Assembly (NCBI GenBank): GCA_964541395.1 | Contig: CAZIPM010000001.1 | Span: 3,833 to 67,832 of the forward strand | Origin: an uncultured Gammaproteobacteria bacterium | Lineage (GTDB): Bacteria > Patescibacteriota > Microgenomatia > UBA8517 | Direction: 5' to 3' | DNA length: 64,000 bases | Part shown: positions 1,787 to 15,219 of the stretch, piece by piece | How the letters are laid out: each line of letters opens with the position of its first letter | Numbering within the stretch: position 1 is the first letter of the stretch | Made by a program: the position numbers and the translations under genes | Notes under the pieces: model-generated | Database searches by the model: none | Seen by the model: the letters and a program-made list of their open reading frames with translations, nothing else | Told to the model about the DNA's origin: nothing

Positions 1787-1961
1787 CTTCATGCGTTATA
1801 TTCTGGTCATGTTATTTCAGAAAGACCATACAATCAATAAAGGCAGAGTTCCTTGTGAATATTTATTATTGTACGAAATCAAGTTTTTGGAGATAGCTTC
1901 TTTGGACATCAACCAACTACTTCACAATTTGCATAATTGACAACCGATGTAGAATGAGAAT

Positions 1962-2468
1962 GTGAATATTATATTGGTTGTTGTTTCTTTAGTGTTTTTT
2001 ATTAGCGGTGTATATATTAACCTAAAGGACAATAAAAATCCGGAAAACTTAAACAGTTGGATAGAAAATTCTCCATCATCAACTCCATTTCCAACCGGAT
2101 CGAGAAATGCTATCTCTTCACCCTCTGCTATTGTAAAAGGATCTGTTTCCTCAATTACTGTTCCCGAAGCATCAAAGCCCGCTTCAGACATACTTGGATC
2201 ATTTCAATATCCTAGGTCAAATATAATTTCTAAGACTGAAAGTGAAATGGTGTTGGAAAATTCCGGACAGGAGAACATTGTTACAAATTGGTACAAAAAT
2301 AAAATTGAAAGTCAGAGATATTCGTCAAAAAGTTATGCACTAACAAATACAAATGGGAATATATTAAATAAACTGTCAGCCGCAAAAAATGGAAGTAAGG
2401 TAGAGATTGAAATAAAAAAAGACAGCTCTGAATCAAAAATCCATATAATCATTCGCTTGACAAACTAA
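1962..2468 (+). CDS. hypothetical membrane-anchored protein (N-terminal TM helix, Ser/Asn-rich ectodomain)
   Basis: ORF with an N-terminal hydrophobic helix, IILVVVSLVFFISGVYI. I recognise no family. Confidence 0.35.
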   Translation: MNIILVVVSLVFFISGVYINLKDNKNPENLNSWIENSPSSTPFPTGSRNAISSPSAIVKGSVSSITVPEASKPASDILGSFQYPRSNIISKTESEMVLENSGQENIVTNWYKNKIESQRYSSKSYALTNTNGNILNKLSAAKNGSKVEIEIKKDSSESKIHIIIRLTN

Positions 2469-2520
2469 AAATCCTTCTGTAACATTCCAAGAAGTCAAGC
2501 CTGCCTGATGAAAAGTTCAA

Positions 2521-3159
2521 ATGCGTAATTTAAAAATTATACTCGGCAGGATAGTTGAAAACTTCAATAGAATAAACTTTAAAAATTTGCTGGGTAACAA
2601 TGAGTTTGCATTTAATAACCATTCATATAAAAAGATTGTTCCAGTTGTTATCCTTGTTGTTTTCGTTTTGATTACAATAATTCTTGTTTTCTATCTTGTT
2701 AGAAATTCAAAAAACCCTAGCGAAATAATCATTAAAGATGCTAAGGATGTTTATAACGTAGAGAAAGAGTTTTTATTTCCTATTTTTGATGATAAAGGTA
2801 AAGAAGTCTATAAGTTGAAATACATTATTCAGAATGTGGAGAAGAGGGATGAAATTGTAGTTAAAGGTCAAAGAGCAAGATCGGTTAAGGGAAGAACATT
2901 TCTTATTGTTAATATAAAAATAGTAAATGATTTCAATCAACCAATTACAATTCAGTCAAGGGATTATGTCAGATTTTCCCTAAATGGAGATAAAAATCAA
3001 TGGTTGGCTCCGGATATTCACAATGATCCGATTGAGATTCAGGCAATCTCCACAAAACTAATAAGAGTAGGTTTGGCTGTGAATGATTCCGACAATAATA
3101 TAGTCCTTCGTGTTGGAGAAATAAATGGAAATAAAACTGAAATTGAGGTAAAGATTTAA
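2521..3159 (+). CDS. membrane-anchored DUF4352-like beta-domain protein
   Basis: A TM helix (VPVVILVVFVLITIILVFYLV) is followed by ...KGRTFLIVNIKIVNDFNQPITIQSRDYVRFSLNGDKNQW..., the pattern typical of the DUF4352 family. Confidence 0.45.
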   Translation: MRNLKIILGRIVENFNRINFKNLLGNNEFAFNNHSYKKIVPVVILVVFVLITIILVFYLVRNSKNPSEIIIKDAKDVYNVEKEFLFPIFDDKGKEVYKLKYIIQNVEKRDEIVVKGQRARSVKGRTFLIVNIKIVNDFNQPITIQSRDYVRFSLNGDKNQWLAPDIHNDPIEIQAISTKLIRVGLAVNDSDNNIVLRVGEINGNKTEIEVKI

Positions 3160-3160
3160 A

Positions 3161-3346
3161 ATGAGTGATCCATATGCAACAAATAATGTCTCTCCACTAT
3201 TAATCGCAGAATTAACCAGGGCTTTGGAAAGTGTCAACGATTATGGCAGCGTGGAAATAATAATACAGGGTGGTATCGTTACTCAGATCAGTACCAGAAA
3301 AATTAGAAAGACCAGTGCCCAGGCTAAGTCAAATAATAACTCTTGA
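3161..3346 (+). CDS. small YezD/DUF2292-like protein
   Basis: 61 aa. ...YGSVEIIIQGGIVTQISTRKIRK resembles the DUF2292 core (GSV.i..qdGkVvqIe.tekir). The start overlaps the stop of the upstream gene (TAAAATG). Confidence 0.4.
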   Translation: MSDPYATNNVSPLLIAELTRALESVNDYGSVEIIIQGGIVTQISTRKIRKTSAQAKSNNNS

Positions 3347-3419
3347 CAAGCCTAAAATATTTAGCTATAAGTTATTATTACATTAACATTATAAGCTAAG
3401 GATTTATAAGCTGACCGCG

Positions 3420-3476
3420 AACGGAGGCTTTCTTCCCTCAATTGATTTTGGGGAAAGGAAGCCTCCGTTTTCGTTT
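3420..3476 (+). terminator. rho-independent terminator downstream of the YezD-like gene
   Basis: An imperfect stem of about 15 bp, aacggaggctttcttccc / gggaaaggaagcctccgtt, followed by ttttcgttt. Confidence 0.5.
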
Positions 3477-3563
3477 GTAACGGAAACGGTTTTAAAGTGC
3501 TCTCTTAAACCAGGTACTGAAAAGTAGCTGGGGAGAACAAATGAAAGGGGGTGAATAATATAA

Positions 3564-4823
3564 ATGAATAAATACCAAAAAGCAGTAACAGCTGCTGTAG
3601 CGGCTGGAACATTATTACTTCAAAGTTTTATGCCCATTTTTGCGGCAACGATAATAATTTCTGGAAACGGAACTGATTCCGACAATACAGCAGATGTAGA
3701 ATTAAATCACTCAGTAAGTGTTACTCAATCAAATTATGCGGACGTTAAAAACGATGTTGACGCATCAGCGACAACAGGTAAAAACGAAGCCGAGGGTAAT
3801 ACCGGAGGCGATGTTTCTATCGAAACAGGTAGCGCAGATACAACAGTAAATGTAAGCAACGATTTGAATAAAAACGTAGCTAATGTAGACTGCTGTGGAG
3901 CAACTGATTTTGAAGTCGAAATTTCCGGAAACGGAAAAGACTCAGATAATAAAGTTGACCTGGATTATAACGAAAAAACTTCTGCAGTAACAGTTTCACA
4001 AGAAAATTATGCAGATGTTGAAAACGATATAGATGCAACCTCTTCTACTGGTAAAAACGAAGCTGAAGACAACACGGGTGGAAATGTTTCTATTGAAACC
4101 GGTGCTGCAACAACTGAAGTTACCGTAGGAACGGCAGCTAATGTCAACTCCGCAAGAGTAGGAGGTGGCTCATCACAAGGTGGGTCAGTTTCAGCTCTAA
4201 TCTTGGGTAACGGCAAGGACAGCGACAACAAGATCGACCTAGATCTTAGTAGCTGGGTAGCCTTATACCAGGATAATTATGCAGATGTTGATAATGATAT
4301 CGACGCTGCAGCTTACACAGGTAAAAACGAAGCAGAAGACAATACCGGAGGTGAAGTATCCATAGAGACCGGAAAAGCAGACGTAACCGTTGAAGTAGAC
4401 AATTCAGTAAACTTCAACTTTGCAGATGCCAATTGTGGATGCTTATTAGAAGATCTTTTGGCTAAAATCGCTGGAAACGGAGTAGACTCCGAAAACAAGA
4501 TTGAAGCTGAAATAGGATCAGGACTTTCTGTAGATCAAAGCAACTGTGGAAGTGAAGAGAAAAAGTCTGAAGATTGTGAGTTAGACAACGATGTTGATGC
4601 ATTTGCAGGTACTGGCTTGAACGAGGCAGAGGATAATACCGGAGAACCGGGCGATGATCCTTCAATCGAAACTGGCGCAGCGGCTTCGACCGTTGAGTTA
4701 GGCAATTCAGGCAATACAAATGTATACGGTGCGAGTGATGACTGGGAATTACCAGGATTCGATTTCAATCTAAACTTTTCTTTCAGTTTATCTGAACTGT
4801 TAGATTTGTTAGGACTGAACTAA
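3564..4823 (+). CDS. secreted repeat protein with four tandem modules of about 100 aa each (novel family; module core GNGxDSDN...NYADVxNDxDAxxxTGKNEAEDNTGGxVSIETG)
   Basis: Signal peptide MNKYQKAVTAAVAAGTLLLQSFMPIFAAT. Four recognisable internal repeats, with CC/CGC motifs between modules. A strong SD (aaagggggtg) lies upstream of the ATG. Confidence 0.7.
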   Translation: MNKYQKAVTAAVAAGTLLLQSFMPIFAATIIISGNGTDSDNTADVELNHSVSVTQSNYADVKNDVDASATTGKNEAEGNTGGDVSIETGSADTTVNVSNDLNKNVANVDCCGATDFEVEISGNGKDSDNKVDLDYNEKTSAVTVSQENYADVENDIDATSSTGKNEAEDNTGGNVSIETGAATTEVTVGTAANVNSARVGGGSSQGGSVSALILGNGKDSDNKIDLDLSSWVALYQDNYADVDNDIDAAAYTGKNEAEDNTGGEVSIETGKADVTVEVDNSVNFNFADANCGCLLEDLLAKIAGNGVDSENKIEAEIGSGLSVDQSNCGSEEKKSEDCELDNDVDAFAGTGLNEAEDNTGEPGDDPSIETGAAASTVELGNSGNTNVYGASDDWELPGFDFNLNFSFSLSELLDLLGLN

Positions 4824-4927
4824 ACCGTACTTTTGGGATCTGGAGGGATTAAGCTTGCACTTAGCTAATCTCTCCGGAACCAGAAGACGAAAGTAAAAAA
4901 AATAAGAAGTTAAAAAAGAATAACAAA

Positions 4928-7213
4928 ATGACGGAAATTAAAAGAATATTTACGGGGTTACTTATTGGAATATTATTAATAGCCAATAATTCGTTTGTGC
5001 TGGCAATTGAACCTCCACCTGCAGCAACTCCACCACCTGCAGCAACTCCTCCGCCAGCGGCGACACCACCGTCTTCCACTATTAATCCTGTGGCAACTAT
5101 TACTCCACCACCTGCAGCAACTCCACCGCCAGCCTGGACACCTGCTGCAACAACAACAAATTCTCCGCAAGCATCCGGAGCGGGAGCTACAGCTACACCA
5201 AAACCAACCAAAACGCCAAAACCGGCAACTCCGACTCCTGCTCCTGCAGCGATTACATCAGGACAACCAACTCCTTCAAGTTCAACAAATGAACTAGTGG
5301 CACCCGTTAACAGTGAAGATACAGGAGGTCAGGATGGGGATGGAGGATTTGGTGCAACAATTACTACCTCTGATGCAAATAATACCGGAGCAATTGCCAA
5401 TAATGTTAATAGTAATCTTGCCGTAGTCTCAGGTGACGGCAGTAGTGGAGCGACGGTTGTAAATTCCGGAAATGGAAGTAATTCCACCAATTCAGGATCA
5501 TTATCTATTACAGGAGGAGACAATACAAATCAAATAAATAGCGCTGTAGTTAATAATAATTTGGCTTTAGTTTCGGACAGCGGAGACAATTCCGCTTCAG
5601 GTAATACCGGAGGAGATTCCGTAATATCAACCGGGAATGCAAATGTCACAGGTACAATAATCAATTCAGTTAATACAAATGTTTCTGGGATAAATGTGGC
5701 TGAATTTAACATAGTTGAGGATCACATGGGTGATCTTATCTTGGATTTTTCAGGAGCTTGCCCAATAAGTGGTTGTATCGGGTCAATTTACAATGTTGCA
5801 AACATTGATAATGGGTCAGGGTCAACGAACACAGCCTCCATTGATTCGGTAATTGATAATACAACTTTCCAGAATAATGACGCTACTGTTGAGAATAATA
5901 TGACTTTAGTTGCCGAAAGCGGTGAAAATAAAACGAACTATAATACGGGAGGCGATTCGTCTATAACAACAGGTGACGCAAACGTATCTGCAAATATTAT
6001 GAATTTTGTCAACAATAACATAGCAGGAGGAGTAGTCTATGCAGTTGTAAATATTTTCGGAGAATTGATCGGCGATATAATATTACCAGGTGGTATTTCA
6101 ATACCATGTTGTTTAGGGAGCAGCGATATTAATGCAATTAATTCGGATAACGGTTCAAATTCAACCAATAATATTAATTTGGATATTACCGATAACACAA
6201 ATTATGATCAATTTAACTCGGTAGACATAACCAATAACCTTATCTTTGATGCCAACTCAGGAAGAAATGAAACAAGTGATAATACTGCCGGAAGTTCGTC
6301 TGTAAAAACAGGGAATACTTCAGTTGACGCGCAGGTATTAAATATTGCCAATACGAATATAATCGGGGGAAATTGGTGGTTGGTACTGGTTAATGAGGCA
6401 GGAAACTGGGTAGGAAAAATATTAGGTGCTGACGGGCAATCTTTCGGAGGTTCCGACGGATTTAACTTTACTGTCAATGAATCAGGAGAGATTACAGTTA
6501 TGAATTCAGGTAACGGCAGTGACACAAATAATACTGTAAATGTTAGCGAAACTACAAATAATTCAGTTACTCAAAACAACACTGCAACTTTGGTAAATAA
6601 TGTAAATCTGACTGCTGACAGCGGACACAACTCAGCTTCGAGTAACACCGGAGGTAATTCATCAATCCAAACTGGTGATGCAAATATAGTCGCCAACATC
6701 GTAAACTTTGTGAATAATAATATTATTGGATCGGGTAAACTATTCGTAACAGTTGTTAACGTATTTGGAAATTGGATTGGTGATTTCAAAGGACCGGGTT
6801 TTGAAGAAAATATTGAAGATAATTCTGATTTGGCAATCGGAGGAGCGGAAGTTAATAATTCGGCGTCTAATGAAAATTTAAATGAAAATAGCAATCAAGA
6901 TAATAATATTCCATCTACAACCAACAGTCTCTCAAGATTTGTTAATGACCCGGTTAATGCGTGGAATAGTGCTAATAATGATGTCATCTCAAATTCAACA
7001 AACGAGTCCCTTACATCCGCCGGTCAGAAAGTTGCTAAGATATTAGGTTCATCTACAGTTACGAAAGATTCAAATGGAAAAAAGAAAGTTACCATAAATC
7101 TTGCCTGGCTACTGTTAGGTTTGTTCCCATTGGGATTAACAACAGGAGTATTAAGAAGAAGACAGTATATAAAAAATATAATCCTTAAATACAGGAGTAA
7201 TGGGAAAACTTAG
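4928..7213 (+). CDS. large cell-surface repeat protein (Pro/Ala/Thr linker, NTGG...S(I/V)xTGxAN modules, C-terminal hydrophobic anchor plus basic tail)
   Basis: Signal peptide; PPPAATPPPAATPPPAAT linker; multiple modules SGDNSASGNTGGDSVISTGNANV / SGENKTNYNTGGDSSITTGDANV / SGHNSASSNTGGNSSIQTGDANI; C-terminus ...LAWLLLGLFPLGLTTGVLRRRQY. Confidence 0.7.
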   Translation: MTEIKRIFTGLLIGILLIANNSFVLAIEPPPAATPPPAATPPPAATPPSSTINPVATITPPPAATPPPAWTPAATTTNSPQASGAGATATPKPTKTPKPATPTPAPAAITSGQPTPSSSTNELVAPVNSEDTGGQDGDGGFGATITTSDANNTGAIANNVNSNLAVVSGDGSSGATVVNSGNGSNSTNSGSLSITGGDNTNQINSAVVNNNLALVSDSGDNSASGNTGGDSVISTGNANVTGTIINSVNTNVSGINVAEFNIVEDHMGDLILDFSGACPISGCIGSIYNVANIDNGSGSTNTASIDSVIDNTTFQNNDATVENNMTLVAESGENKTNYNTGGDSSITTGDANVSANIMNFVNNNIAGGVVYAVVNIFGELIGDIILPGGISIPCCLGSSDINAINSDNGSNSTNNINLDITDNTNYDQFNSVDITNNLIFDANSGRNETSDNTAGSSSVKTGNTSVDAQVLNIANTNIIGGNWWLVLVNEAGNWVGKILGADGQSFGGSDGFNFTVNESGEITVMNSGNGSDTNNTVNVSETTNNSVTQNNTATLVNNVNLTADSGHNSASSNTGGNSSIQTGDANIVANIVNFVNNNIIGSGKLFVTVVNVFGNWIGDFKGPGFEENIEDNSDLAIGGAEVNNSASNENLNENSNQDNNIPSTTNSLSRFVNDPVNAWNSANNDVISNSTNESLTSAGQKVAKILGSSTVTKDSNGKKKVTINLAWLLLGLFPLGLTTGVLRRRQYIKNIILKYRSNGKT
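5012..5068 (+). repeat. 18-bp tandem repeat x3 encoding (PPPAAT)3, with a partial fourth copy near 5104-5136
   Basis: cctccacctgcagcaact / ccaccacctgcagcaact / cctccgccagcggcgaca, read directly from the sequence. Confidence 0.7.
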
Positions 7214-8381
7214 AAAAGTCCTAATCATCCTGCCTCAAATAACCTTAATTTTAGCCGGGATGTTTTCTCCGTTCACACGTGTTGCATACGCAACAGAAAT
7301 AATAGTAACTGGAAACGGTGACGGTTCAACCAGTGAAGTCAACACTGCAATTAATTCTACAACTTCCATAACTCAGAACAATGATGCTAATGTTAATAAC
7401 GATATTAATTCATCAGCATCAACAGGGGGAAACGAAGCAAATGGCAATGTCCAAGCAGTAAGTATTCAAACCGGAAATATAAATAATAGTGTTGAAGTAA
7501 ACAATAACTTAAATAATTCAATTGCAACAATTGACTGCTGCCCATCCAATGGAAGCACTTTTACAATCTCAGCTAACGGAACCGAAAGTGTAAATTCAAT
7601 TGAGGTTAATAGTGAATCGACAAATACGTATTCAATCAATCAAACCGCAATCATCAGAAATAATATCTTGGGATATTCCAACACCGGTGGTAATTCGGCA
7701 AATAACAATAGCGGTAGTGTGTCGATAGAAACCGGAAATATAGATTCAAAAAGTAAAATCATAAATGATCCGATAAACCAGTATTATTTAAAAGCTGGGG
7801 TTATTAAACCCAATTTTTCAGCATTAGTTTCTGAAAATGGCGCGGGTAGCGAAAACTATGTATCTTTAAATATTTTACACAATAATTCTATAACAATTAA
7901 CAATTTTTTTAGTGTTGACAACAATCTTGATTGGCAGCTAGTGACAGGTGATAATACTGCGAACAATAACTTAGGAAATGTTTTTATAAAAACAGGAAAT
8001 ATAATGTTTGATACAGTTATTAGAAATGCTGCCAATATTGGTGGAGTTAATTTAACTTGTTGCAAGGCCTTCAGAGACGATCAAGATCCCCCAGATGATG
8101 AAGAAATACCAGATGATAAAGAAGTACCAGATGATGAAAGAGAGGCTACCCCTACTCCTAAACCTACAAATGGAATAGGCGGAAGCTCGGTTTTAAACTC
8201 AGCTTCATCAGATAGTGGAGGTGTCAGTCCATCGGTACTTGGTCTTTCGGACACTTCAAGTCCGGCAATGAGCCTTATTAGATTATTAGTCGGAACTTTA
8301 ACTGCTCTATTGGGATTTATTATAGTTAGCCAAAAATTGTATGCTTACAAAAAAGCTCTTCAAATATATATTAAAGTTTAA
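7200..8381 (+). CDS. cell-surface repeat protein, paralog of 3564 and 4928, with an acidic PDDxEx repeat and a C-terminal membrane anchor
   Basis: Signal peptide. Modules ...STGGNEANGNVQAVSIQTGNINN..., IDCCPSNGS, LTCCKAF. C-terminus ...LIRLLVGTLTALLGFIIVSQKLYAYKK. AGGAG lies 3 nt upstream of the ATG at 7200. Confidence 0.65.
   Translation: MGKLRKVLIILPQITLILAGMFSPFTRVAYATEIIVTGNGDGSTSEVNTAINSTTSITQNNDANVNNDINSSASTGGNEANGNVQAVSIQTGNINNSVEVNNNLNNSIATIDCCPSNGSTFTISANGTESVNSIEVNSESTNTYSINQTAIIRNNILGYSNTGGNSANNNSGSVSIETGNIDSKSKIINDPINQYYLKAGVIKPNFSALVSENGAGSENYVSLNILHNNSITINNFFSVDNNLDWQLVTGDNTANNNLGNVFIKTGNIMFDTVIRNAANIGGVNLTCCKAFRDDQDPPDDEEIPDDKEVPDDEREATPTPKPTNGIGGSSVLNSASSDSGGVSPSVLGLSDTSSPAMSLIRLLVGTLTALLGFIIVSQKLYAYKKALQIYIKV
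8091..8144 (+). repeat. 18-bp tandem repeat x3 encoding PDDEEI/PDDKEV/PDDERE
   Basis: ccagatgatgaagaaata / ccagatgataaagaagta / ccagatgatgaaagagag. Confidence 0.65.
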
Positions 8382-8988
8382 AAAACTCGTTTCTAAACCA
8401 AAATTTAAGATTAGGTTAAAAAAACTTAAGGTTGGGAAATACCCATTTTCTTTAGGTTTAGCCCTTCTGATTTTTGGTGGATTTTTATTAGTTGGAAATG
8501 GAGTTAATAAAAATAAAGCAGCATATACATTTGCAACAGAACCTGTGAAGATTGAAGGGTTTAACCAAATTAAGAATCAAGAAGGTACTGAAGAACCTGT
8601 CAAGATTATTATACCGAAAGCTGGTATTGATCTTCCTGTAAAAAGATCAGAGGTAATTAACGGTTATTGGGAAGTATTTCAGGATACTGCTGGATGGGGG
8701 ATAGGGTCAGGTTTTCCGGGAAAAATCGGCAATCAGGTAATTTTTGCCCATGCAAGGGAAGGTTTGTTTTTACCTCTTAATAAATTGAAAAAAAATGACA
8801 GAATATATGTCCATACCAAAAGTTCTTGGTTTTCATATTATGTTATCGATATTAAAAGTGTAGCTCCTAACCAATTGGAAGTAATTGCACCCACCCAAGA
8901 TGAAACTCTGACACTTTATACATGTAGCGGTTATAAAGACTCGTACAGACTTATAATTGTTGCAAAACGTGAGGACCCCTTGTTCTAA
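8341..8988 (+). CDS. sortase-family transpeptidase (N-terminal TM anchor)
   Basis: Conserved His (VIFAHAREG), the TLxTC catalytic Cys motif (ETLTLYTCSGY) and an Arg (YRLIIVAKRE) in the canonical order and spacing. The N-terminal helix is FSLGLALLIFGGFLLV. The start is uncertain, because the track start overlaps the previous gene by 41 nt. Confidence 0.7.
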   Translation: MLTKKLFKYILKFKKLVSKPKFKIRLKKLKVGKYPFSLGLALLIFGGFLLVGNGVNKNKAAYTFATEPVKIEGFNQIKNQEGTEEPVKIIIPKAGIDLPVKRSEVINGYWEVFQDTAGWGIGSGFPGKIGNQVIFAHAREGLFLPLNKLKKNDRIYVHTKSSWFSYYVIDIKSVAPNQLEVIAPTQDETLTLYTCSGYKDSYRLIIVAKREDPLF

Positions 8989-9001
8989 TCAAGGGGTCCT
9001 C
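8971..9001. terminator. bidirectional intrinsic terminator between the convergent sortase and 9029..9637 genes
   Basis: Perfect 12-bp inverted repeat gaggaccccttg-ttctaat-caaggggtcctc. The sortase stop codon lies within the loop. Confidence 0.6.
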
Positions 9002-9028
9002 TAGACAAAACGACTACACTTTATACGA

Positions 9029-9637
9029 TTAAAGTGTGTTTGTACCTCCTGTAACGTCAAGAGTAGACGTGCTATCTGCACTATCGGTTGTTATACCGAC
9101 ATTTCCGCCACCGGTATTGTCTTTAACTTTATTTCTTCCAGTCCTAGATTTTGCTTTAACTTTAGCAAAAACTCCAGTAAAAGATTCCTGCTCAATAGTT
9201 GAGCTGGATGATTTATTAACCGTTACCTTATTGGTGGATTTTTTTGCGTTACCAGAAATATCAACAGTGCTTCCGTTTGGTTCACTGTTTGGTTGGCAGC
9301 AACATGGATTTGACATGTTATTGCTTCCGCCAGTAACTGTCAGAGATGCATTCGATGTGGCACTTCCAGTATCGATTGTTTTATCTCCTGCTCCTGTATT
9401 TCCAGATACTATATTTCCACCAGTTGATGATGTTGCAGATACGCTGGCTAGAACCAATGTATTTGTTTCTTGCTCAACTGTACAATCGCTAGTGTTATTG
9501 TAAATAATAGTGTTTGTTGATTTTTTAGCGTTACCTGTGATTGTCAGATTCTCGGCAAATACTGATGGAGCAAACGATCCAAATAATATCGCAGCTGTTG
9601 ATACCGCAACAGAAACTTTATATGCTAGTTTATTCAT
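9029..9637 (-). CDS. secreted repeat protein (two modules), paralog of the 3564 family
   Basis: Signal peptide MNKLAYKVSVAVSTAAILFGSFAPSVFA, similar to the 3564 N-terminus. Modules ITGNAKKSTN...STGGNIVSGNTGAGDKTIDTGSA. A CCC motif (NPCCCQPN). A strong SD, aggaggtg, on the minus strand. Confidence 0.65.
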   Translation of the reverse strand: MNKLAYKVSVAVSTAAILFGSFAPSVFAENLTITGNAKKSTNTIIYNNTSDCTVEQETNTLVLASVSATSSTGGNIVSGNTGAGDKTIDTGSATSNASLTVTGGSNNMSNPCCCQPNSEPNGSTVDISGNAKKSTNKVTVNKSSSSTIEQESFTGVFAKVKAKSRTGRNKVKDNTGGGNVGITTDSADSTSTLDVTGGTNTL

Positions 9638-9942
9638 TTAATTATCACCTCCTTTCTAATTTAAAATAAATTATTGATTTAGATTCATGAAAATGGAGAT
9701 TTAATCGAATGAAGTTATGAAATGATCTTAAACTAATTGTATTACTCATATAATGCCTCCGGTGGCGGTCAGCAAAATGTATCCAATAGTTTATCAAGTT
9801 ATTACACTATAGTGTCAACTGTATCTTTCACAATATTTTTAGTAACTAAATGTGTCAATAATATAAAAGCTAGGTTATCAAAAAAAGTAAGATAAATAGG
9901 TAATGATTGTAAATCACATTGTAAAATAATATGATGATATAA

Positions 9943-10932
9943 ATGATAATGATTCAGCAACTTTTACATTTATTATTGCCTCGGGAAAGTAATAATCATA
10001 AGGCAAAACTTCTGCATACAAGTAGTTTTCTAATAATTTCAGTACTATTGGTTATCAGTCAGGCAGTTTTATCAATTCTACCGAAACTTGGACCGTCAAT
10101 TTTGGGCTACACCGCCAATATATCACCGGAGGAAGTTGTACGCCTAACCAATGAGAAAAGGATTGCTGCAGGGCTTTCTACCCTTACATATAATAGTACT
10201 CTTGCAGGAGCAGCTTACAGCAAAGGGATGGATATGATAAACAGGGATTATTGGGCACATGTTGCTCCGGACGGAACACAGCCCTGGAAGTTTTTTTCTG
10301 ATTTCGGTTATAGGTACCGGTATGCCGGGGAAAACTTAGCCCGTGATTTTACCAATGCGCCAGCGGCTGTTGATGCCTGGATGAATTCACCGACACATAG
10401 GGACAATATATTGAATTCCAAGTATAAAGAAATTGGAATAGGTGTGGTTGAGGGAGATTTGGCAGGTGTTGATACCACGATAATAGTACAATTCTTCGGT
10501 TCCACCTATCAGGATAAGATAATCCAGCCTGTTGCCCAGGCTGAAAATACCGAAAATTCGCCTACTCTAAAACCTGTTGTAAGTTCGGAGCCTATTCTTC
10601 AGGTAACTCCAGTTGCAACTTTGACTCCACTTGTAGTTGTATCCCCAAGTCCATTTGCTGCACCGACAACTTTTACTCAAGTCTTGCAGGCAGATAAATC
10701 AGACACAGGGGGATTTGGCAAAGAACAGAAAGTGTTGATATCACCATTTACTACCACAAAAACAATATCTCTGGCAGTAGTCGGTCTTCTGGTGGTGGTA
10801 TTTTTGATTGACGGAGTATTAGTCAGCAGGCGAAAGATAGCCAGGATAGGGGGCAGGACGGTAGCCCACCTTGCATTTTTTGGGATGATTCTAACTATAG
10901 TACTTATTTTAAAGTCAGGAAAAATACTTTAA
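9943..10932 (+). CDS. CAP/SCP/PR-1 (YkwD-like) domain protein with N- and C-terminal hydrophobic segments
   Basis: ...SPEEVVRLTNEKRIAAGLSTL...WAHVAPDG...GENLAR...AWMNSPTHRDNIL...IGIGVV matches the bacterial CAP-domain signature. The C-terminus has hydrophobic stretches plus SRRK. The exact start is uncertain. Confidence 0.7.
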   Translation: MIMIQQLLHLLLPRESNNHKAKLLHTSSFLIISVLLVISQAVLSILPKLGPSILGYTANISPEEVVRLTNEKRIAAGLSTLTYNSTLAGAAYSKGMDMINRDYWAHVAPDGTQPWKFFSDFGYRYRYAGENLARDFTNAPAAVDAWMNSPTHRDNILNSKYKEIGIGVVEGDLAGVDTTIIVQFFGSTYQDKIIQPVAQAENTENSPTLKPVVSSEPILQVTPVATLTPLVVVSPSPFAAPTTFTQVLQADKSDTGGFGKEQKVLISPFTTTKTISLAVVGLLVVVFLIDGVLVSRRKIARIGGRTVAHLAFFGMILTIVLILKSGKIL

Positions 10933-12237: not shown

Positions 12238-15219
12238 ATGAAAGTACTCATTACCGGTGGAGCAGGATTTATAGGGTCAAACTTCATTTACTATTGGTTA
12301 AAAAACCACCCCAAAGATAAAATACGAGTTTTAGATGCTTTGACGTTTGCCGGTAATAAAGATAATTTAAAACCTGTTCTTAAAAAATTAGAATTTATTG
12401 AAGGAGATATAACCAATAGGGATCAGGTAAAATCTGCAATGAAAGGTATTGATACTGTTGTCCATTTTGCCGCAGAAAGCCATGTGGACAGATCAATTTT
12501 TGAACCCGGCAAGTTTTGGAAGACCAATGTAGAAGGTACAAGAATTTTACTCGAAGAAGCTCATTATGCAAAAATACCAAGATTCCATCATGTGTCCTGC
12601 TATGACACGCAAACCAGGGCATTTACAAAAGAAGGTCTCAAAACTTATGATCAGATGAAAATTGGAGATTTGGTATTAAGCATTAATCTAAAGACTCAAG
12701 ATGTTGAATGGAAACCGGTTGAAAAGGTCATCATTCAGGACTACAAAGGAAAAATGATTCGGATGAAAAGTAAAGTTGTTGACTTTTTTGTGACTCCAAA
12801 TCACAGGATGCTTGTTCAGGCAAAAAGAAGCAGGGATTTATCTTTTAAGGATGCAAATTTTGTAAAAGATCAGGCTAGGAATTTCCTTCCTTATTACTAC
12901 CAGTGGAAAGGCAAATCTTCCAAAATTATTAAACAATTCGGTACTTGCCAAAAAGAATTTATGTATCTGCTGGGAATTTTTATCGGTGACGGATTTACTG
13001 CATATCAGGAAAAAAAACAAATCAACAAAACAGGATTGTCAAAACAGATGTATTGTCAGTTAGCCAGAGACAGTATGGGTAGGTTTATGCAAGTCTGTCA
13101 GATTGGGGATCAAAAATATACGATATCAAAATCATGGAGGATATTTTTGGATATTCCTGAAAAGGATGAGTGTAGAACCATGTGTGAATCCGCACTAACA
13201 AGACTAGGTATAAATTGGCATGCCCACAAAGGTAAGGCGGGAACTCATTTGTATATGACCTCAAAAAAGTTATTTGATATTTTTTCTGATTGTGGGAAAT
13301 ATGCAAAAAATAAACAAATTCCCGATTGGGCAGTGGATGCGCCACTGGAACTGTTGATGAATTTATGGAATGGATTGATGGATTCGGACGGAAGCAATCA
13401 TCGGGTGTTTTTTACCATTTCGCCTAAACTAGCCTATCAGTTTATGGAGCTAAGCGTAAAACTTGGTTACACTCCCACATTGAGTAAGCGATACACAAAA
13501 TCAATTTATGAAGGTCGAAATATTGAAGGTTGGTCATATGTCATATCGGTCGGATCAAGGCAAAGGATTTTAAGGAAAGAAATTTCTGAGGAAGTTGATT
13601 ACGATGGGAAGATTTGGTGTCTTAAAGTCAAAAACAACAAAAATTTCTTAATTGAAAGAAATGGAAGAACCGCTTTCTGTGGAAATACCGATGAGGTTTA
13701 TGGTGAACTGCCTTTGGATTCTAACGAACGCTTTAGTGAAAAAACTCCATATGCTCCCAGACCAGACAATTTGTATGCAATCAGTAAAGCTGAAGCAGAT
13801 AGGGTGGTTAGGGAGTTCTACAAAAGTACGGGAATGTATTTGACCATTTCTAACTGCTCCAATAATTATGGTCCATTTCAATTTCCTGAAAAATTTGTAC
13901 CCATTCTGGTTACCAACTTGATCGACGGACTTAAAGCTCCCGTTCACGGAGATGGGAAAAATGTCAGAGATTGGATACACACGGATGATCACGCAAAGGC
14001 TGTTGATTTAATTTTGGAAAAAGGAAAAGCTGGTGAAACTTACTTGGTTGGGAGTAATGTAGATGTTGCCAATATATACATTGCAAAACATATAGTAAAT
14101 CTGTATGGCAAAGATGAAAGCTGGATCCGTTATGTCCCTGACAGACACAGTAATGACAGAAGGTATGCAATCGATTCAAGAAAAATAATTCAGGAACTTG
14201 GTTGGAAGCCGGCTATAACCCGAGACAATTTTGATGATGGTTTAATGGATACTATCTCCTGGTATAAAAAGAATAAAGATTGGTGGAAGCCGCTTCTTTC
14301 CAGACAAACAGTAGTAGTTGACGGTGACAGTAAAATTTATGCATTTATAGAAATTGATAGGGAGTTAGGTAAAACCAAATTTAATTATGGTGAACCTGAA
14401 GAACACAACAAAGTTTCTAAACTTGCCGAAAAGATGATGGAGGAAGATCCCAGGAAAATATCTCTAATTAAAAAGAAAATCAAAAGTCACTATTGGTTTA
14501 AAAATTCTAAACCTGCTATACAAGACTCACTATTGGAACTTATTAAAATATCCAGAACATCAGGGTTTATTGAAGATCTGGCCAACAGACCGGAGGTTGT
14601 TGGTGGGTACACACAAAATAAAGTAGTTAAATTTGAACATTCACCAGACAAAAAACAAATCTATGGTGTAGCTATCTGGTTTGAAGTTGAAAACACTAAA
14701 GGTGAGAAACACATAGAAGGCTTTTATTCATGGGCTATGGGGGTTAAATCGGGAGCCAAAATGTTGGTTTTAATCCGTTACAAAAACGAAATAACCCATT
14801 TAGCCCTGACTAAGGAACAAAAATTTGCAATAGGTTCAGAAATCTACAATATGCCGGGAGGATTTCCAAAAATAAATGAAAGTGTTTTTGATTTGATACA
14901 CAGAAAACTTGAAGATGATTTGGGAGTGGATGTTAAAGACGGACATATTAAAGTCGGTGATATCATAGGTTTGGGTAGGATCATGCCTGATCCAGGTATG
15001 ACCAATAACCATCCATTTCTTTATGCCATAGTTTTAGATCTGACTGAAAACATCTTTCCCCCAATTAGAATCGGAGAGGTCTATGAAACAGGGGGAAAAT
15101 TGGTACTATGGCCTATTGAGAGATTATCTGAGCTGGTAAATAAAGTAGACGACTCATATTTCCTATCCTCACTTACAAGACTAATGCTTTCAGGGGTTAC
15201 TAGTCTAAAGTTAAATTAA
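12238..15219 (+). CDS. rfbB: dTDP-glucose 4,6-dehydratase interrupted by an intein, with a C-terminal Nudix-hydrolase-like domain fused
   Basis: Extein N: MKVLITGGAGFIGSNF...RFHHVS. Extein C: TDEVYGELPLD...YAPRPDNLYAISKAEAD...NYGPFQFPEKFVPI... (RmlB signatures). After about residue 700 comes an extra 300-aa domain with a degenerate Nudix box, PGGFPKINESVFDLIHRKLEDDLGV. Confidence 0.85.
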   Translation: MKVLITGGAGFIGSNFIYYWLKNHPKDKIRVLDALTFAGNKDNLKPVLKKLEFIEGDITNRDQVKSAMKGIDTVVHFAAESHVDRSIFEPGKFWKTNVEGTRILLEEAHYAKIPRFHHVSCYDTQTRAFTKEGLKTYDQMKIGDLVLSINLKTQDVEWKPVEKVIIQDYKGKMIRMKSKVVDFFVTPNHRMLVQAKRSRDLSFKDANFVKDQARNFLPYYYQWKGKSSKIIKQFGTCQKEFMYLLGIFIGDGFTAYQEKKQINKTGLSKQMYCQLARDSMGRFMQVCQIGDQKYTISKSWRIFLDIPEKDECRTMCESALTRLGINWHAHKGKAGTHLYMTSKKLFDIFSDCGKYAKNKQIPDWAVDAPLELLMNLWNGLMDSDGSNHRVFFTISPKLAYQFMELSVKLGYTPTLSKRYTKSIYEGRNIEGWSYVISVGSRQRILRKEISEEVDYDGKIWCLKVKNNKNFLIERNGRTAFCGNTDEVYGELPLDSNERFSEKTPYAPRPDNLYAISKAEADRVVREFYKSTGMYLTISNCSNNYGPFQFPEKFVPILVTNLIDGLKAPVHGDGKNVRDWIHTDDHAKAVDLILEKGKAGETYLVGSNVDVANIYIAKHIVNLYGKDESWIRYVPDRHSNDRRYAIDSRKIIQELGWKPAITRDNFDDGLMDTISWYKKNKDWWKPLLSRQTVVVDGDSKIYAFIEIDRELGKTKFNYGEPEEHNKVSKLAEKMMEEDPRKISLIKKKIKSHYWFKNSKPAIQDSLLELIKISRTSGFIEDLANRPEVVGGYTQNKVVKFEHSPDKKQIYGVAIWFEVENTKGEKHIEGFYSWAMGVKSGAKMLVLIRYKNEITHLALTKEQKFAIGSEIYNMPGGFPKINESVFDLIHRKLEDDLGVDVKDGHIKVGDIIGLGRIMPDPGMTNNHPFLYAIVLDLTENIFPPIRIGEVYETGGKLVLWPIERLSELVNKVDDSYFLSSLTRLMLSGVTSLKLN
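12598..13686 (+). mobile_element. intein (363 aa) with a LAGLIDADG homing endonuclease, inserted between Ser and the catalytic Thr of the RmlB 'TDE' motif
   Basis: It begins with C (CYDTQTRAF, block A) and has block B VTPNH. Two LAGLIDADG motifs are present (LLGIFIGDGFT and LWNGLMDSDGSN). It ends ...NFLIERNGRTAFCGN followed by T(+1)DEVYG. The host motif FHHVS|TDEVYG is perfectly restored once the insert is removed. Confidence 0.8.

What the first reader, a model, noticed from the sequence alone, without database searches (positions are those of the whole stretch)
3564..9637. Sortase with a cluster of paralogous secreted repeat proteins built from a novel NTGG...S(I/V)xTG module
Four genes (3564, 4928, 7200 and 9029 on the minus strand) encode signal-peptide proteins built from a recurring module: [IV]xGNGxDSxN...N(Y/D)A(D/N)VxNDxDAxxxTG(K/G)NEA(E/N)xNTGGxVSIxTGxA. 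The module is present four times in 3564. A sortase (8341..8988; conserved His, TLYTC and Arg) is encoded immediately downstream, and two of the proteins end in a hydrophobic segment plus a basic tail, consistent with sortase substrates. I know of no characterised domain with this module. In a CPR-type organism this may be the principal surface layer or an adhesin system for host attachment.
Basis: partly seen in the sequence, partly recalled or inferred. Interest (0 to 1): 0.65.

Follow-up and report, generated by a model that had tools for sequence, protein, structure and literature searches.

The report
Microgenomates surface-protein operon with variant sortase
Four related secreted proteins built from an uncatalogued 90-residue all-beta repeat sit in an operon conserved across the Microgenomates (CPR bacteria), next to a dedicated sortase that appears to anchor one of them to the cell wall through a non-standard signal (GLSDTS instead of LPXTG).

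Summary
ORFs A (3564-4823), B (4928-7213), C (7200-8381) and D (9029-9637, minus strand) carry 4, 4, 3 and 2 copies of one ~90-aa module. They score 82-380 bits, against at most 3.8 bits for shuffles, and nothing else in the window matches. ORF 8341-8988 is a sortase (Pfam E=7e-23; His137, Cys195, Arg203).

The module matches nothing in Pfam, NCBIfam or PDB sequences, yet it occurs in 3521 protein clusters at 50% identity. The order u212-DUF2292-A-B-C-sortase is conserved across the Microgenomates lineages sampled.

New result: C ends in VLGLSDTS + TM helix + basic tail. Across 57 loci the signal type tracks the sortase clade exactly: 25 of 25 GLSxTS with this clade and 28 of 28 LPXTG with another. 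The type changes about 9 times on the A-protein tree.

B's tail (INLAW + TM helix) does not track the sortase clade, so it is probably a plain membrane anchor. A and D have no anchor.

AlphaFold models (pLDDT 72 and 78) are all-beta. Their nearest PDB neighbours are beta-helices and solenoids (SufB/D, curli CsgA), but only weakly.

Most likely this is a wall-anchored, multi-paralog surface assembly, comparable in logic to chaplins or curli. That function is inferred, not shown.

The parts
1962..2468 (+). u168: small protein with an N-terminal TM helix; accessory member of the conserved cluster
   Evidence: Homologue found about 1.8 kb upstream of A in 50 of 83 loci. No Pfam family.
2521..3159 (+). 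u212: protein with an N-terminal TM helix and a beta-rich ectodomain; core member of the cluster
   Evidence: Homologue found upstream of A in 81 of 83 loci. Only a weak DUF4352 hit, E=0.015. No PDB relative.
3161..3346 (+). Small DUF2292 (YezD-like) protein without a signal peptide
   Evidence: PF10055 E=3.3e-7. Present upstream of A in 71 of 83 loci.
3564..4823 (+). Protein A (419 aa): signal peptide, four modules, conserved C-terminal tail, no anchor. Modules lie at nt 3645-3908, 3909-4181, 4182-4451 and 4452-4739. The tail is DWELPGFDFNLNFSFSLSELLDLLGLN (nt 4740-4820).
   Evidence: There are 490 or more full-length homologues at 50-98% identity, none with a Pfam domain. Strong Shine-Dalgarno sequence. 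AF2 model pLDDT 71.9.
4928..7213 (+). Protein B (761 aa): signal peptide, ~110-aa Pro/Thr/Ala-rich linker, four modules each followed by a hydrophobic ~25-aa insert, then a C-terminal INLAW + TM helix + RRRQ anchor. Modules lie at nt 5456-5695, 5807-6025, 6128-6358 and 6488-6724. The anchor is at nt 7094-7165.
   Evidence: B follows A in 78 of 84 loci, and an INLAW-like anchor is present in 74 of 78 irrespective of sortase clade.
7200..8381 (+). Protein C (393 aa): signal peptide, three modules (nt 7293-7535, 7557-7766, 7815-8039), acidic/Pro-rich disordered stalk (nt 8064-8234), and a C-terminal sorting signal
   Evidence: The AF2 model has modules above pLDDT 90, a stalk below 50, and a C-terminal helix at residues 355-392.
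8235..8378 (+). Putative non-canonical cell-wall sorting signal of C: VLGLSDTS (nt 8235-8258), then a hydrophobic helix, then the basic tail KLYAYKK
   Evidence: Motif frequencies in 51 proteins of this type: G 51, L 40, S 35, x, T 36, S 38. It covaries perfectly with the sortase clade. It is the only such signal in the 64-kb window.
8341..8988 (+). Sortase (215 aa) of the Microgenomates clade called c2 here. It has an N-terminal TM anchor and His137, Cys195, Arg203. It overlaps the end of gene C by 41 nt.
   Evidence: It scores 297 bits against the c2 HMM and 44 bits against the c1 HMM.
9029..9637 (-). Protein D (202 aa): signal peptide, two modules (nt 9320-9547 and 9038-9268), CCC between them, no anchor; convergent with the sortase gene
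   Evidence: D-like genes on the minus strand occur in 32 of 84 loci. Strong Shine-Dalgarno sequence.

Best explanation
This is a cell-envelope operon conserved across the Microgenomates: u168, u212, DUF2292, A, B, C, sortase, and D on the opposite strand. It encodes four Sec-secreted paralogues made of a ~90-residue, Asn/Gly/Thr/Ser-rich, all-beta module. Each module is itself four sub-repeats of ~22 residues and is predicted to have beta-helix/solenoid-like geometry.

Shown here:
- The paralogy of the four proteins.
- Conservation of the gene order.
- The sortase and its catalytic triad.
- Strict covariation between the sortase clade and the signal type on C.

Inferred:
1. The adjacent, overlapping sortase cleaves C within G-L-S-D-T|S. 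By analogy with LPXT|G it then joins the Thr to the peptidoglycan precursor. C is thereby displayed on an acidic, disordered stalk.
2. B stays in the membrane through its C-terminal INLAW helix.
3. A and D have no anchor and carry the strongest ribosome-binding sites. They are released and dock onto the homologous modules of B and C. Docking would be beta-edge to beta-edge, possibly stapled by the conserved vicinal Cys pairs. The result would be a wall-tethered layer or fibre on the cell surface.

The logic resembles chaplins (sortase-anchored long paralogues plus secreted short ones) and curli (an anchored nucleator plus a secreted major subunit).
For: - Paralogy: 13 module copies, found only in these four ORFs; alignment; shuffle control; the search with C retrieves A-family proteins at E 1e-19 to 1e-34.
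- Breadth: 490 or more A homologues. The module profile finds 3521 clusters at 50% identity, 2373 of them at E<=1e-10. A scan of species-representative genomes found 159 matching stretches. All but one of the 80 loci kept that carry a group-level name are from Microgenomates lineages: Woese-, Gottesman-, Chisholm-, Levy-, Davies-, Roizman-, Ames- and Curtissbacteria.
- Synteny.
- Sorting signal: C orthologues carry either LPxTG or [VI]LG-L-[SA]-x-[TA]-[SG] in front of a TM helix and basic tail.
- Covariation: in 57 loci, 28 of 28 LPXTG signals sit next to sortase clade c1 and 25 of 25 GLSxTS signals sit next to clade c2 (the window's clade), with no cross cases. The type changes about 9 times on an A-protein NJ tree but only once on the sortase tree.
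- Within-genome control: the Gottesmanbacteria locus L001 has a c1 sortase beside an LPATG SpaA-like protein and a c2 sortase beside its GLSAAAG C protein.
- Sub-repeats: a ~22-residue sub-period within the 90-residue period.
- Expression hint: strong Shine-Dalgarno sequences only for A and D.
Against: - There is no experimental evidence for cleavage at GLSDT|S, for wall attachment, or for any A-B-C-D assembly.
- The covariation counts are not phylogenetically corrected. The tree used is an NJ tree of a repeat protein, not a species tree.
- In two species (L002/L011 and L008) the C gene, or a B-C fusion, ends right after GLSATSS with no TM helix. That does not fit a classical tripartite signal.
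- For A, three of the five AF2 models were poor (mean pLDDT 39-45).
- There is no sequence relationship to curli: hhalign probability 0.3%.
- Nothing shows that A is abundant or polymeric.
Confidence: 0.6

Rival explanations
1. The four proteins are independent, monomeric beta-helical adhesins or host-binding proteins. C is wall-anchored, B is membrane-anchored, and A and D are soluble effectors. They share a fold but do not co-assemble. The operon would serve attachment to, or manipulation of, a host cell.
For: - All cultivated Patescibacteria grow attached to other microbes (abstract of PMC11623550).
- No assembly has been shown.
Against: - A is unusually conserved for an adhesin, with 50-65% identity over its full length across the candidate phyla sampled.
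- The module number is fixed (4/4/3/2), and the gene order is strict.
- Host-recognition proteins of episymbionts would be expected to vary much more.
- The Cys pairs are conserved at equivalent module ends in A and C.
Confidence: 0.2
2. This is a sortase-polymerised pilus of the Gram-positive SpaA type. The sortase would join the C-terminal Thr of C to a conserved Lys of another subunit, for example the nearly invariant K301 of A, to build a covalent fibre.
For: - The operon layout (several structural paralogues plus a dedicated sortase) resembles pilus islands.
- A has a nearly invariant Lys at position 301, at the start of module 4.
- The c1 clade leans towards class C in NCBIfam scores.
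Against: - Only one of the four proteins has a sorting signal. At most a heterodimer could therefore form, whereas in SpaA-type pili every pilin carries LPXTG.
- No CnaB or Ig-like domains, pilin motif or E-box are present.
- The sortase scores far below the class C cut-off: 50.6 bits against 160.
Confidence: 0.07
3. GLSDTS is not a sortase site. C is simply held by its C-terminal TM helix, and the sortase acts on other substrates elsewhere in the genome. The covariation would reflect shared ancestry only.
For: - No biochemical data exist.
- The motif lacks the Pro and Gly of LPXTG.
- Many LPXTG-type orthologues also have a VLG motif a few residues upstream, so VLG could have a separate role.
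- Some C genes lack the TM helix altogether.
Against: - The association is perfect (53 loci, no exceptions), with about 9 joint switches on the A tree.
- The motif is the only conserved element in an otherwise low-complexity C-terminal region.
- The C and sortase genes overlap.
- Extra sortase/one-module-protein pairs in the flanks of L022 (LAVTG with c1) and L024 (GLPVTS with c2) follow the same rule.
- No other signal-bearing protein occurs in 64 kb.
Confidence: 0.13

Closest known systems
Streptomyces chaplins with class E sortases (long chaplins ChpA-C anchored through LAXTG; short chaplins ChpD-H secreted). From my own knowledge of the literature, not tested here.
   Same: A paralogous family sharing one small beta-rich domain. 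The multi-domain member(s) carry a non-LPXTG, Ala/Ser-type sorting signal and are wall-anchored by a dedicated sortase. Anchorless members are secreted and are thought to assemble on the anchored ones. Both have conserved Cys.
   Different: There is no sequence relationship, as no DUF320/chaplin hit was found. The module is about twice as long and is tandemly repeated 2-4 times. The sortase does not reach the class E cut-off (49 bits against 160). The motif ends in Ser rather than Gly. The lineage is Patescibacteria, not Actinomycetota.
Curli (CsgA major subunit and CsgB nucleator) and other functional-amyloid beta-solenoids (FapC)
   Different: No sequence homology: hhalign probability 0.3% and no Curlin_rpt hit. 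One C orthologue gives only a 19-bit hit to the CsgA NCBIfam model, against a cut-off of 160. Global superposition fails (Foldseek TM <= 0.17). No CsgG/E/F-type secretion genes lie in the cluster. This is a monoderm-type envelope with a sortase.
Classical LPXTG surface proteins with housekeeping or pilus sortases (classes A-F)
   Same: The enzyme has the sortase fold and the His-Cys-Arg triad. The C-terminal signal is tripartite (short motif, hydrophobic helix, basic tail). The substrate and sortase genes are adjacent.
   Different: The pentapeptide is L-S-x-T-S, preceded by an invariant Gly, instead of L-P-x-T-G. It pairs with a separate sortase clade that falls below every curated class cut-off.
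[not shown]
   Different: SufB/SufD are cytoplasmic Fe-S assembly proteins. Sequence identity is 7-13% and rmsd is 5-10 A over about 100-125 residues. This is a resemblance in fold class only.

Membership tests
Sortase (PF04203 / TIGR01076) | Match to the family profile above the curated cut-off | tested here: met
   PF04203: 81.1 bits against a cut-off of 26.6, E=7.2e-23. TIGR01076: 47.7 bits against 39.35.
Sortase (PF04203 / TIGR01076) | Catalytic His, Cys (TLxTC) and Arg | tested here: met
   His137, Cys195 and Arg203 align with the catalytic residues of 2kw8 and 3g66. They are conserved in both Microgenomates clades.
Sortase classes A-F and GN (NCBIfam subfamily models) | Score above a class-specific cut-off (140-166 bits) | tested here: not met
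   Best scores are class C 50.6 and class E 49.2 bits for the window enzyme. Other c2 and c1 members score 42-66 bits.
LPXTG cell-wall sorting signal | LPXTG pentapeptide | tested here: not met
   C has LSDTS, within VLGLSDTS. No LP.TG occurs in A-D. TIGR01167 gives no hit.
LPXTG cell-wall sorting signal | Hydrophobic helix followed by a positively charged tail directly after the motif | tested here: met
   C...SPAMSLIRLLVGTLTALLGFIIVSQKLYAYKK... AF2 predicts a helix at residues 355-392.
LPXTG cell-wall sorting signal | Cleavage by sortase and linkage to peptidoglycan | not testable with these tools
   Only genomic covariation is available.
Curli / Curlin_rpt (PF07012, CsgA) | Sequence match to the curlin repeat | tested here: not met
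   No Pfam hit for whole proteins or single modules. hhalign against E. coli CsgA gives probability 0.3%.
Curli / functional-amyloid beta-solenoid | Stacked strand-turn-strand solenoid fold | tested here: inconclusive
   [not shown]
Chaplins (DUF320) | Chaplin domain | tested here: not met
   No Pfam hit.
SpaA-type sortase-assembled pili | Every pilin subunit carries a sorting signal; CnaB/Ig-like domains; pilin-motif Lys | tested here: not met
   Only C has a signal. There are no SpaA, CnaB or Ig hits in A-D.
   No hit at E<=1 for the whole proteins, nor at E<=10 for the 13 single modules.
S-layer proteins with SLH or other known anchoring domains | SLH or another S-layer domain | tested here: not met
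   No Pfam or NCBIfam hit. Whether the proteins form a 2-D lattice cannot be tested here.

The most novel reading that the evidence does not exclude
The operon builds the still-unidentified proteinaceous surface structure (layer or fibres) of Microgenomates/OP11 cells. Curli-like beta-solenoid subunits A and D would be templated on a wall-anchored paralogue, C. C would be attached by a previously unrecognised sortase class whose recognition motif is G-L-S-x-T-S rather than LPXTG. This would be a monoderm, sortase-tethered functional-amyloid-like system specific to one CPR superphylum.
Probability: 0.25. Interest if true: 0.8.

Novelty: new variant of a known kind. Interest (0 to 1): 0.6.

Why it matters
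Microgenomates are a large, uncultivated part of the CPR. Their cell surface is presumably what mediates contact with hosts, yet it is molecularly unknown. Sortase was already noted as near-ubiquitous in this group (PMC6744442), but no substrates were named.

This analysis supplies three things:
- A concrete, conserved substrate family, found in 3521 clusters at 50% identity and absent from Pfam and NCBIfam.
- A defined operon.
- A sharp prediction that needs no cultivation: one sortase clade recognises GLSxTS and a sister clade recognises LPXTG.

If confirmed, this would extend the known range of sortase specificity, which is of practical interest for sortase-based protein ligation. It would also identify candidates for the major surface structure of these bacteria.

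Tried and rejected
- B as a second sortase substrate: rejected. Its INLAW + TM tail is the same in loci with either sortase clade, and it has no conserved pentapeptide.
- SpaA-type pilus: rejected. Only one signal-bearing protein is present and there are no pilin domains.
- Sequence homology to curli: rejected.
- Composition artefact: rejected by the shuffle control.
- Promoter and terminator scan of 1800-10200: counts were no higher than in shuffles, so it was uninformative.
- PDB sequence and profile searches for A, for the module and for u212: no hits.
- Foldseek against AFDB50: the library was not available.
- Foldseek against PDB with the C model: nothing significant.
- Literature searches: sortase or LPXTG with CPR, Patescibacteria, Microgenomates or Woesebacteria; Microgenomates metaproteomics and cell surface; S-layer with cryo-EM or tomography; and DUF2292. 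None described this protein family or its sorting motif.
- NCBIfam LPXTG-anchor models as a positive control: LPXTG-type orthologues gave only sub-threshold hits (8-19 bits) and GLSxTS-type orthologues gave none at the C-terminus. This is suggestive but weak.

Full report
**1. The observation**

The five ORFs exist as described: A 3564-4823 (419 aa), B 4928-7213 (761 aa), C 7200-8381 (393 aa), the sortase at 8341-8988 (215 aa), and D 9029-9637 on the minus strand (202 aa).

I built a 93-position HMM from the four modules of 50 orthologues of A only, and searched all 306 six-frame ORFs of the window.
- It finds 4 modules in A, 4 plus a fragment in B, 3 in C and 2 in D.
- Domain E-values range from 1e-9 to 1e-34.
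- Nothing else in the window matches.
- Residue-shuffled versions of the four proteins reach at most 3.8 bits, against 82-380 bits for the real sequences.

The 13 window modules align over about 88 columns with invariant N10, G47, N49, N54 and T63.

Profile autocorrelation shows the 90-91-residue period. It also shows sub-peaks near 22, 44-47 and 66-68 residues, so each module is about four sub-repeats of ~22 residues.

All four proteins begin with a classical signal peptide: a basic n-region, a hydrophobic core, and an AxA-like site (IFA|A, VLA|I, AYA|T, VFA|E). This was read from the sequence; no SignalP run was possible. The mature proteins are acidic (pI ~4 for A, B and C), rich in Asn, Ser, Thr and Gly, and poor in aromatic residues.

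**2. The sortase**

ORF 8341-8988 matches Pfam Sortase (E=7.2e-23) and TIGR01076 above its cut-off. His137, Cys195 (in TLYTC) and Arg203 align with the catalytic residues of solved sortases. The protein has an N-terminal membrane anchor.

It falls below every curated class cut-off: the best scores are class C at 50.6 bits and class E at 49.2 bits, against cut-offs of 160. It is the only sortase in the 64-kb window.

**3. Is the module known?**

- Pfam and NCBIfam give no family for A-D or for single modules.
- PDB sequence and profile searches give nothing.
- Sources name the homologues 'hypothetical protein', or give obviously spurious automatic names.
- I found no paper describing them or any Microgenomates sortase substrate. 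Meheust et al. [quoted passage not shown]

**4. Distribution and synteny**

A has at least 490 full-length homologues at 50-98% identity. A profile of the 13 window modules finds 3521 clusters at 50% identity with E<=1e-3, and 2373 with E<=1e-10. The architectures recur: about 410 aa with 4 modules, about 500 aa with 5, 700-800 aa, and up to 10 modules.

A scan of one genome per GTDB species found 159 matching stretches. Of the 80 loci kept, those with a group-level name are nearly all Woese-, Gottesman-, Chisholm-, Levy-, Davies-, Roizman-, Ames- or Curtissbacteria, or 'Microgenomates'. The apparent exceptions are short or probably misbinned contigs. Many TPA records carry a placeholder 'Gammaproteobacteria' title.

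In 84 non-redundant loci:
- A is followed by B in 78.
- The downstream order is A-B-C-sortase.
- A D-like two-module gene lies on the opposite strand in 32.
- Upstream, u212 (window 2521-3159) is present in 81 of 83 loci, DUF2292 (3161-3346) in 71 of 83, and u168 (1962-2468) in 50 of 83.
- The CAP/YkwD gene downstream of D is present in only 12.

**5. The sorting signal (the main new result)**

A and D have no C-terminal anchor. A ends in a conserved tail, FxFNxSFxLSDLLxxLG.

B ends in K/R-x-INLAW plus a TM helix and basic residues. This tail is found in 74 of 78 loci whatever the sortase type, and it has no pentapeptide. I read it as a plain membrane anchor.

C ends in VLGLSDTS, then a hydrophobic helix, then KLYAYKK.

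Orthologues of C fall into two types at this same place:
- A canonical type, ...G-x-[IV]-L-P-x-T-G followed by a TM helix and YLRLRSGRSP. In 71 proteins the counts are L 71, P 70, T 69 and G 71.
- The window's type, [VI]-L-G-L-[SA]-x-[TA]-[SG]. In 51 proteins the counts are G 51, L 40, S 35, T 36 and S 38.

The sortases next to them also fall into two clean clades:
- c1 has the pattern ...FAHSS...LILQTC.P.GT...
- c2 has the pattern ...INGYW.V...VIFAHAREGLF...TLTLYTCSG...RLIVVAK. The window enzyme scores 297 bits against c2 and 44 bits against c1.

Across 57 loci with a sortase downstream of A, 28 of 28 LPXTG signals are paired with c1 and 25 of 25 GLSxTS signals with c2. There are no cross cases. 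The four remaining loci are parsing failures or have no C gene.

On an NJ tree of the A proteins the type changes at least 9 times by Fitch parsimony. On the sortase tree it changes once. The pairing is therefore not explained by one ancestral split. The tree is rough, however, and the test is not formally corrected for phylogeny.

Further support:
- The Gottesmanbacteria locus L001 provides a within-genome control. A c1 sortase sits beside a 1840-aa SpaA-like protein ending in LPATG, and a c2 sortase sits beside its module protein ending in GLSAAAG.
- Extra pairs of a one-module protein and a sortase follow the same rule: LAVTG with c1 in L022 and GLPVTS with c2 in L024.

By analogy with LPXT|G, I infer cleavage after the Thr of GLSDT|S and transfer to the wall precursor. 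This step is inferred, not shown.

**6. Structure**

AlphaFold2 gives the following.
- A, with 50 orthologues: mean pLDDT 71.9 and pTM 0.61, but three of the five models were poor.
- C, with 71 orthologues: mean pLDDT 77.6, and all five models between 65 and 78. The module cores are above pLDDT 90. Residues 290-352 form a disordered acidic, Pro-rich stalk. Residues 355-392 form a confident C-terminal helix.

Both models are all-beta with long strands.

So the local geometry is solenoid-like, but no solved structure shares the global fold. I could not inspect the coordinates. There is no sequence link to curli (hhalign probability 0.3%).

Cys pairs are conserved at equivalent places. They follow module 1 (CC in both A and C) and module 3 (CGC in A, CC in C), and D has CCC after module 1. 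This suggests extracytoplasmic disulfide staples.

**7. Interpretation**

The best-supported reading is a conserved envelope operon producing the following:
- One wall-anchored paralogue (C), attached through the c2 sortase.
- One membrane-anchored paralogue (B), with an N-terminal Pro/Thr-rich linker.
- Two anchorless paralogues (A and D).

A and D are the only genes with a strong Shine-Dalgarno sequence.

The strong conservation of A, the fixed module numbers and the shared module all argue that the four proteins act together. The simplest mechanism is homotypic module-to-module docking that builds a tethered layer or fibre. This is the logic of chaplins and curli. That part is inference.

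The rivals are independent adhesins, a covalent SpaA-type pilus, and 'the motif is not a sortase site'. They are weighed in the rival-explanations section of this report.

**8. Novelty and score**

Sortase-anchored surface proteins are a known kind. The new elements are:
- A large, uncatalogued repeat family specific to one CPR superphylum.
- The defined operon.
- A sortase clade paired with a non-LPXTG signal.

I rate this a new variant of a known kind, with interest 0.6. The key prediction is directly testable in vitro.

Noticed in passing
window 12238-15219 (+): A 993-aa dTDP-glucose/GDP-mannose dehydratase-like protein appears to be interrupted by an intein. The Epimerase and GDP_Man_Dehyd matches are split into residues 1-125 and 482-662. 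An Intein_splicing hit (28 bits, below its cut-off) lies between them. The insertion sits inside the catalytic HVS|C...GN|TDEVYG motif. The syntenic gene in L002 is only 630 aa.
   Followed up: partly
L002/L003/L011 11311-14451 and L008 12535-13566: In two Woesebacteria-type species the C gene ends right after ...AILGLSATSS[E/K]. In L002 it is a 1046-aa, 7-module B-C fusion. There is no TM helix or basic tail. In L002 the stop codon overlaps the sortase ATG (ATGA). This would be a sorting motif without a membrane-retention segment, which is unexplained.
   Followed up: no
L001 1266-8296: The same Gottesmanbacteria contig carries a second cluster just upstream: a 1840-aa SpaA-like protein ending in LPATG, a 301-aa protein, and a c1-type sortase. 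One genome therefore keeps both sortase clades with their matching signals.
   Followed up: partly
window 3161-3346 (+): A 61-aa DUF2292 (YezD-like) protein without a signal peptide lies immediately upstream of A in 71 of 83 loci. Its role is unknown; it could be a regulator or a chaperone. The literature has essentially nothing on DUF2292.
   Followed up: partly
window 3564-4823, residue K301 (nt 4464-4466), and Cys 110/111 and 291/293: A has a nearly invariant Lys at the start of module 4, in an otherwise Lys-variable protein. It also has invariant vicinal Cys motifs (CC and CGC) after modules 1 and 3. C has CC at the equivalent two places. These could be disulfide staples, or for the Lys an acceptor site.
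   Followed up: no
window 3538-3563 and 9638-9662: Only the two anchorless genes have near-perfect Shine-Dalgarno sequences: A (aaagggggtga) and D (aaaggaggtga). B and the sortase have none, and C has a weaker one. This hints that A and D are the abundant products.
   Followed up: partly
L008, L016, L019, L020 and many other TPA_asm loci: Many MAG records titled 'uncultured Gammaproteobacteria bacterium' carry this Microgenomates-specific operon. Their titles are evidently placeholder or wrong taxonomy.
   Followed up: no
window 9943-10932 (+): A CAP/YkwD (SCP-like) protein with C-terminal TM segments lies next to D. It is syntenic in only 12 of 83 loci, so it is probably not part of the system.
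   Followed up: partly
P0133 (Woesebacteria orthologue of C): It gives a weak hit to the NCBIfam curli major subunit CsgA model (E=8e-4, 19 bits against a cut-off of 160) over residues 9-145. This is too weak for membership, but it agrees with the curli-like repeat pattern.
   Followed up: no
L022 5363-7216 and L024 106-1327: Levybacteria-type loci have an additional mini-cluster of a one-module protein and a sortase in the sequence upstream of A. Its signal is LAVTG with a c1 sortase or GLPVTS with a c2 sortase, which follows the same pairing rule.
   Followed up: partly
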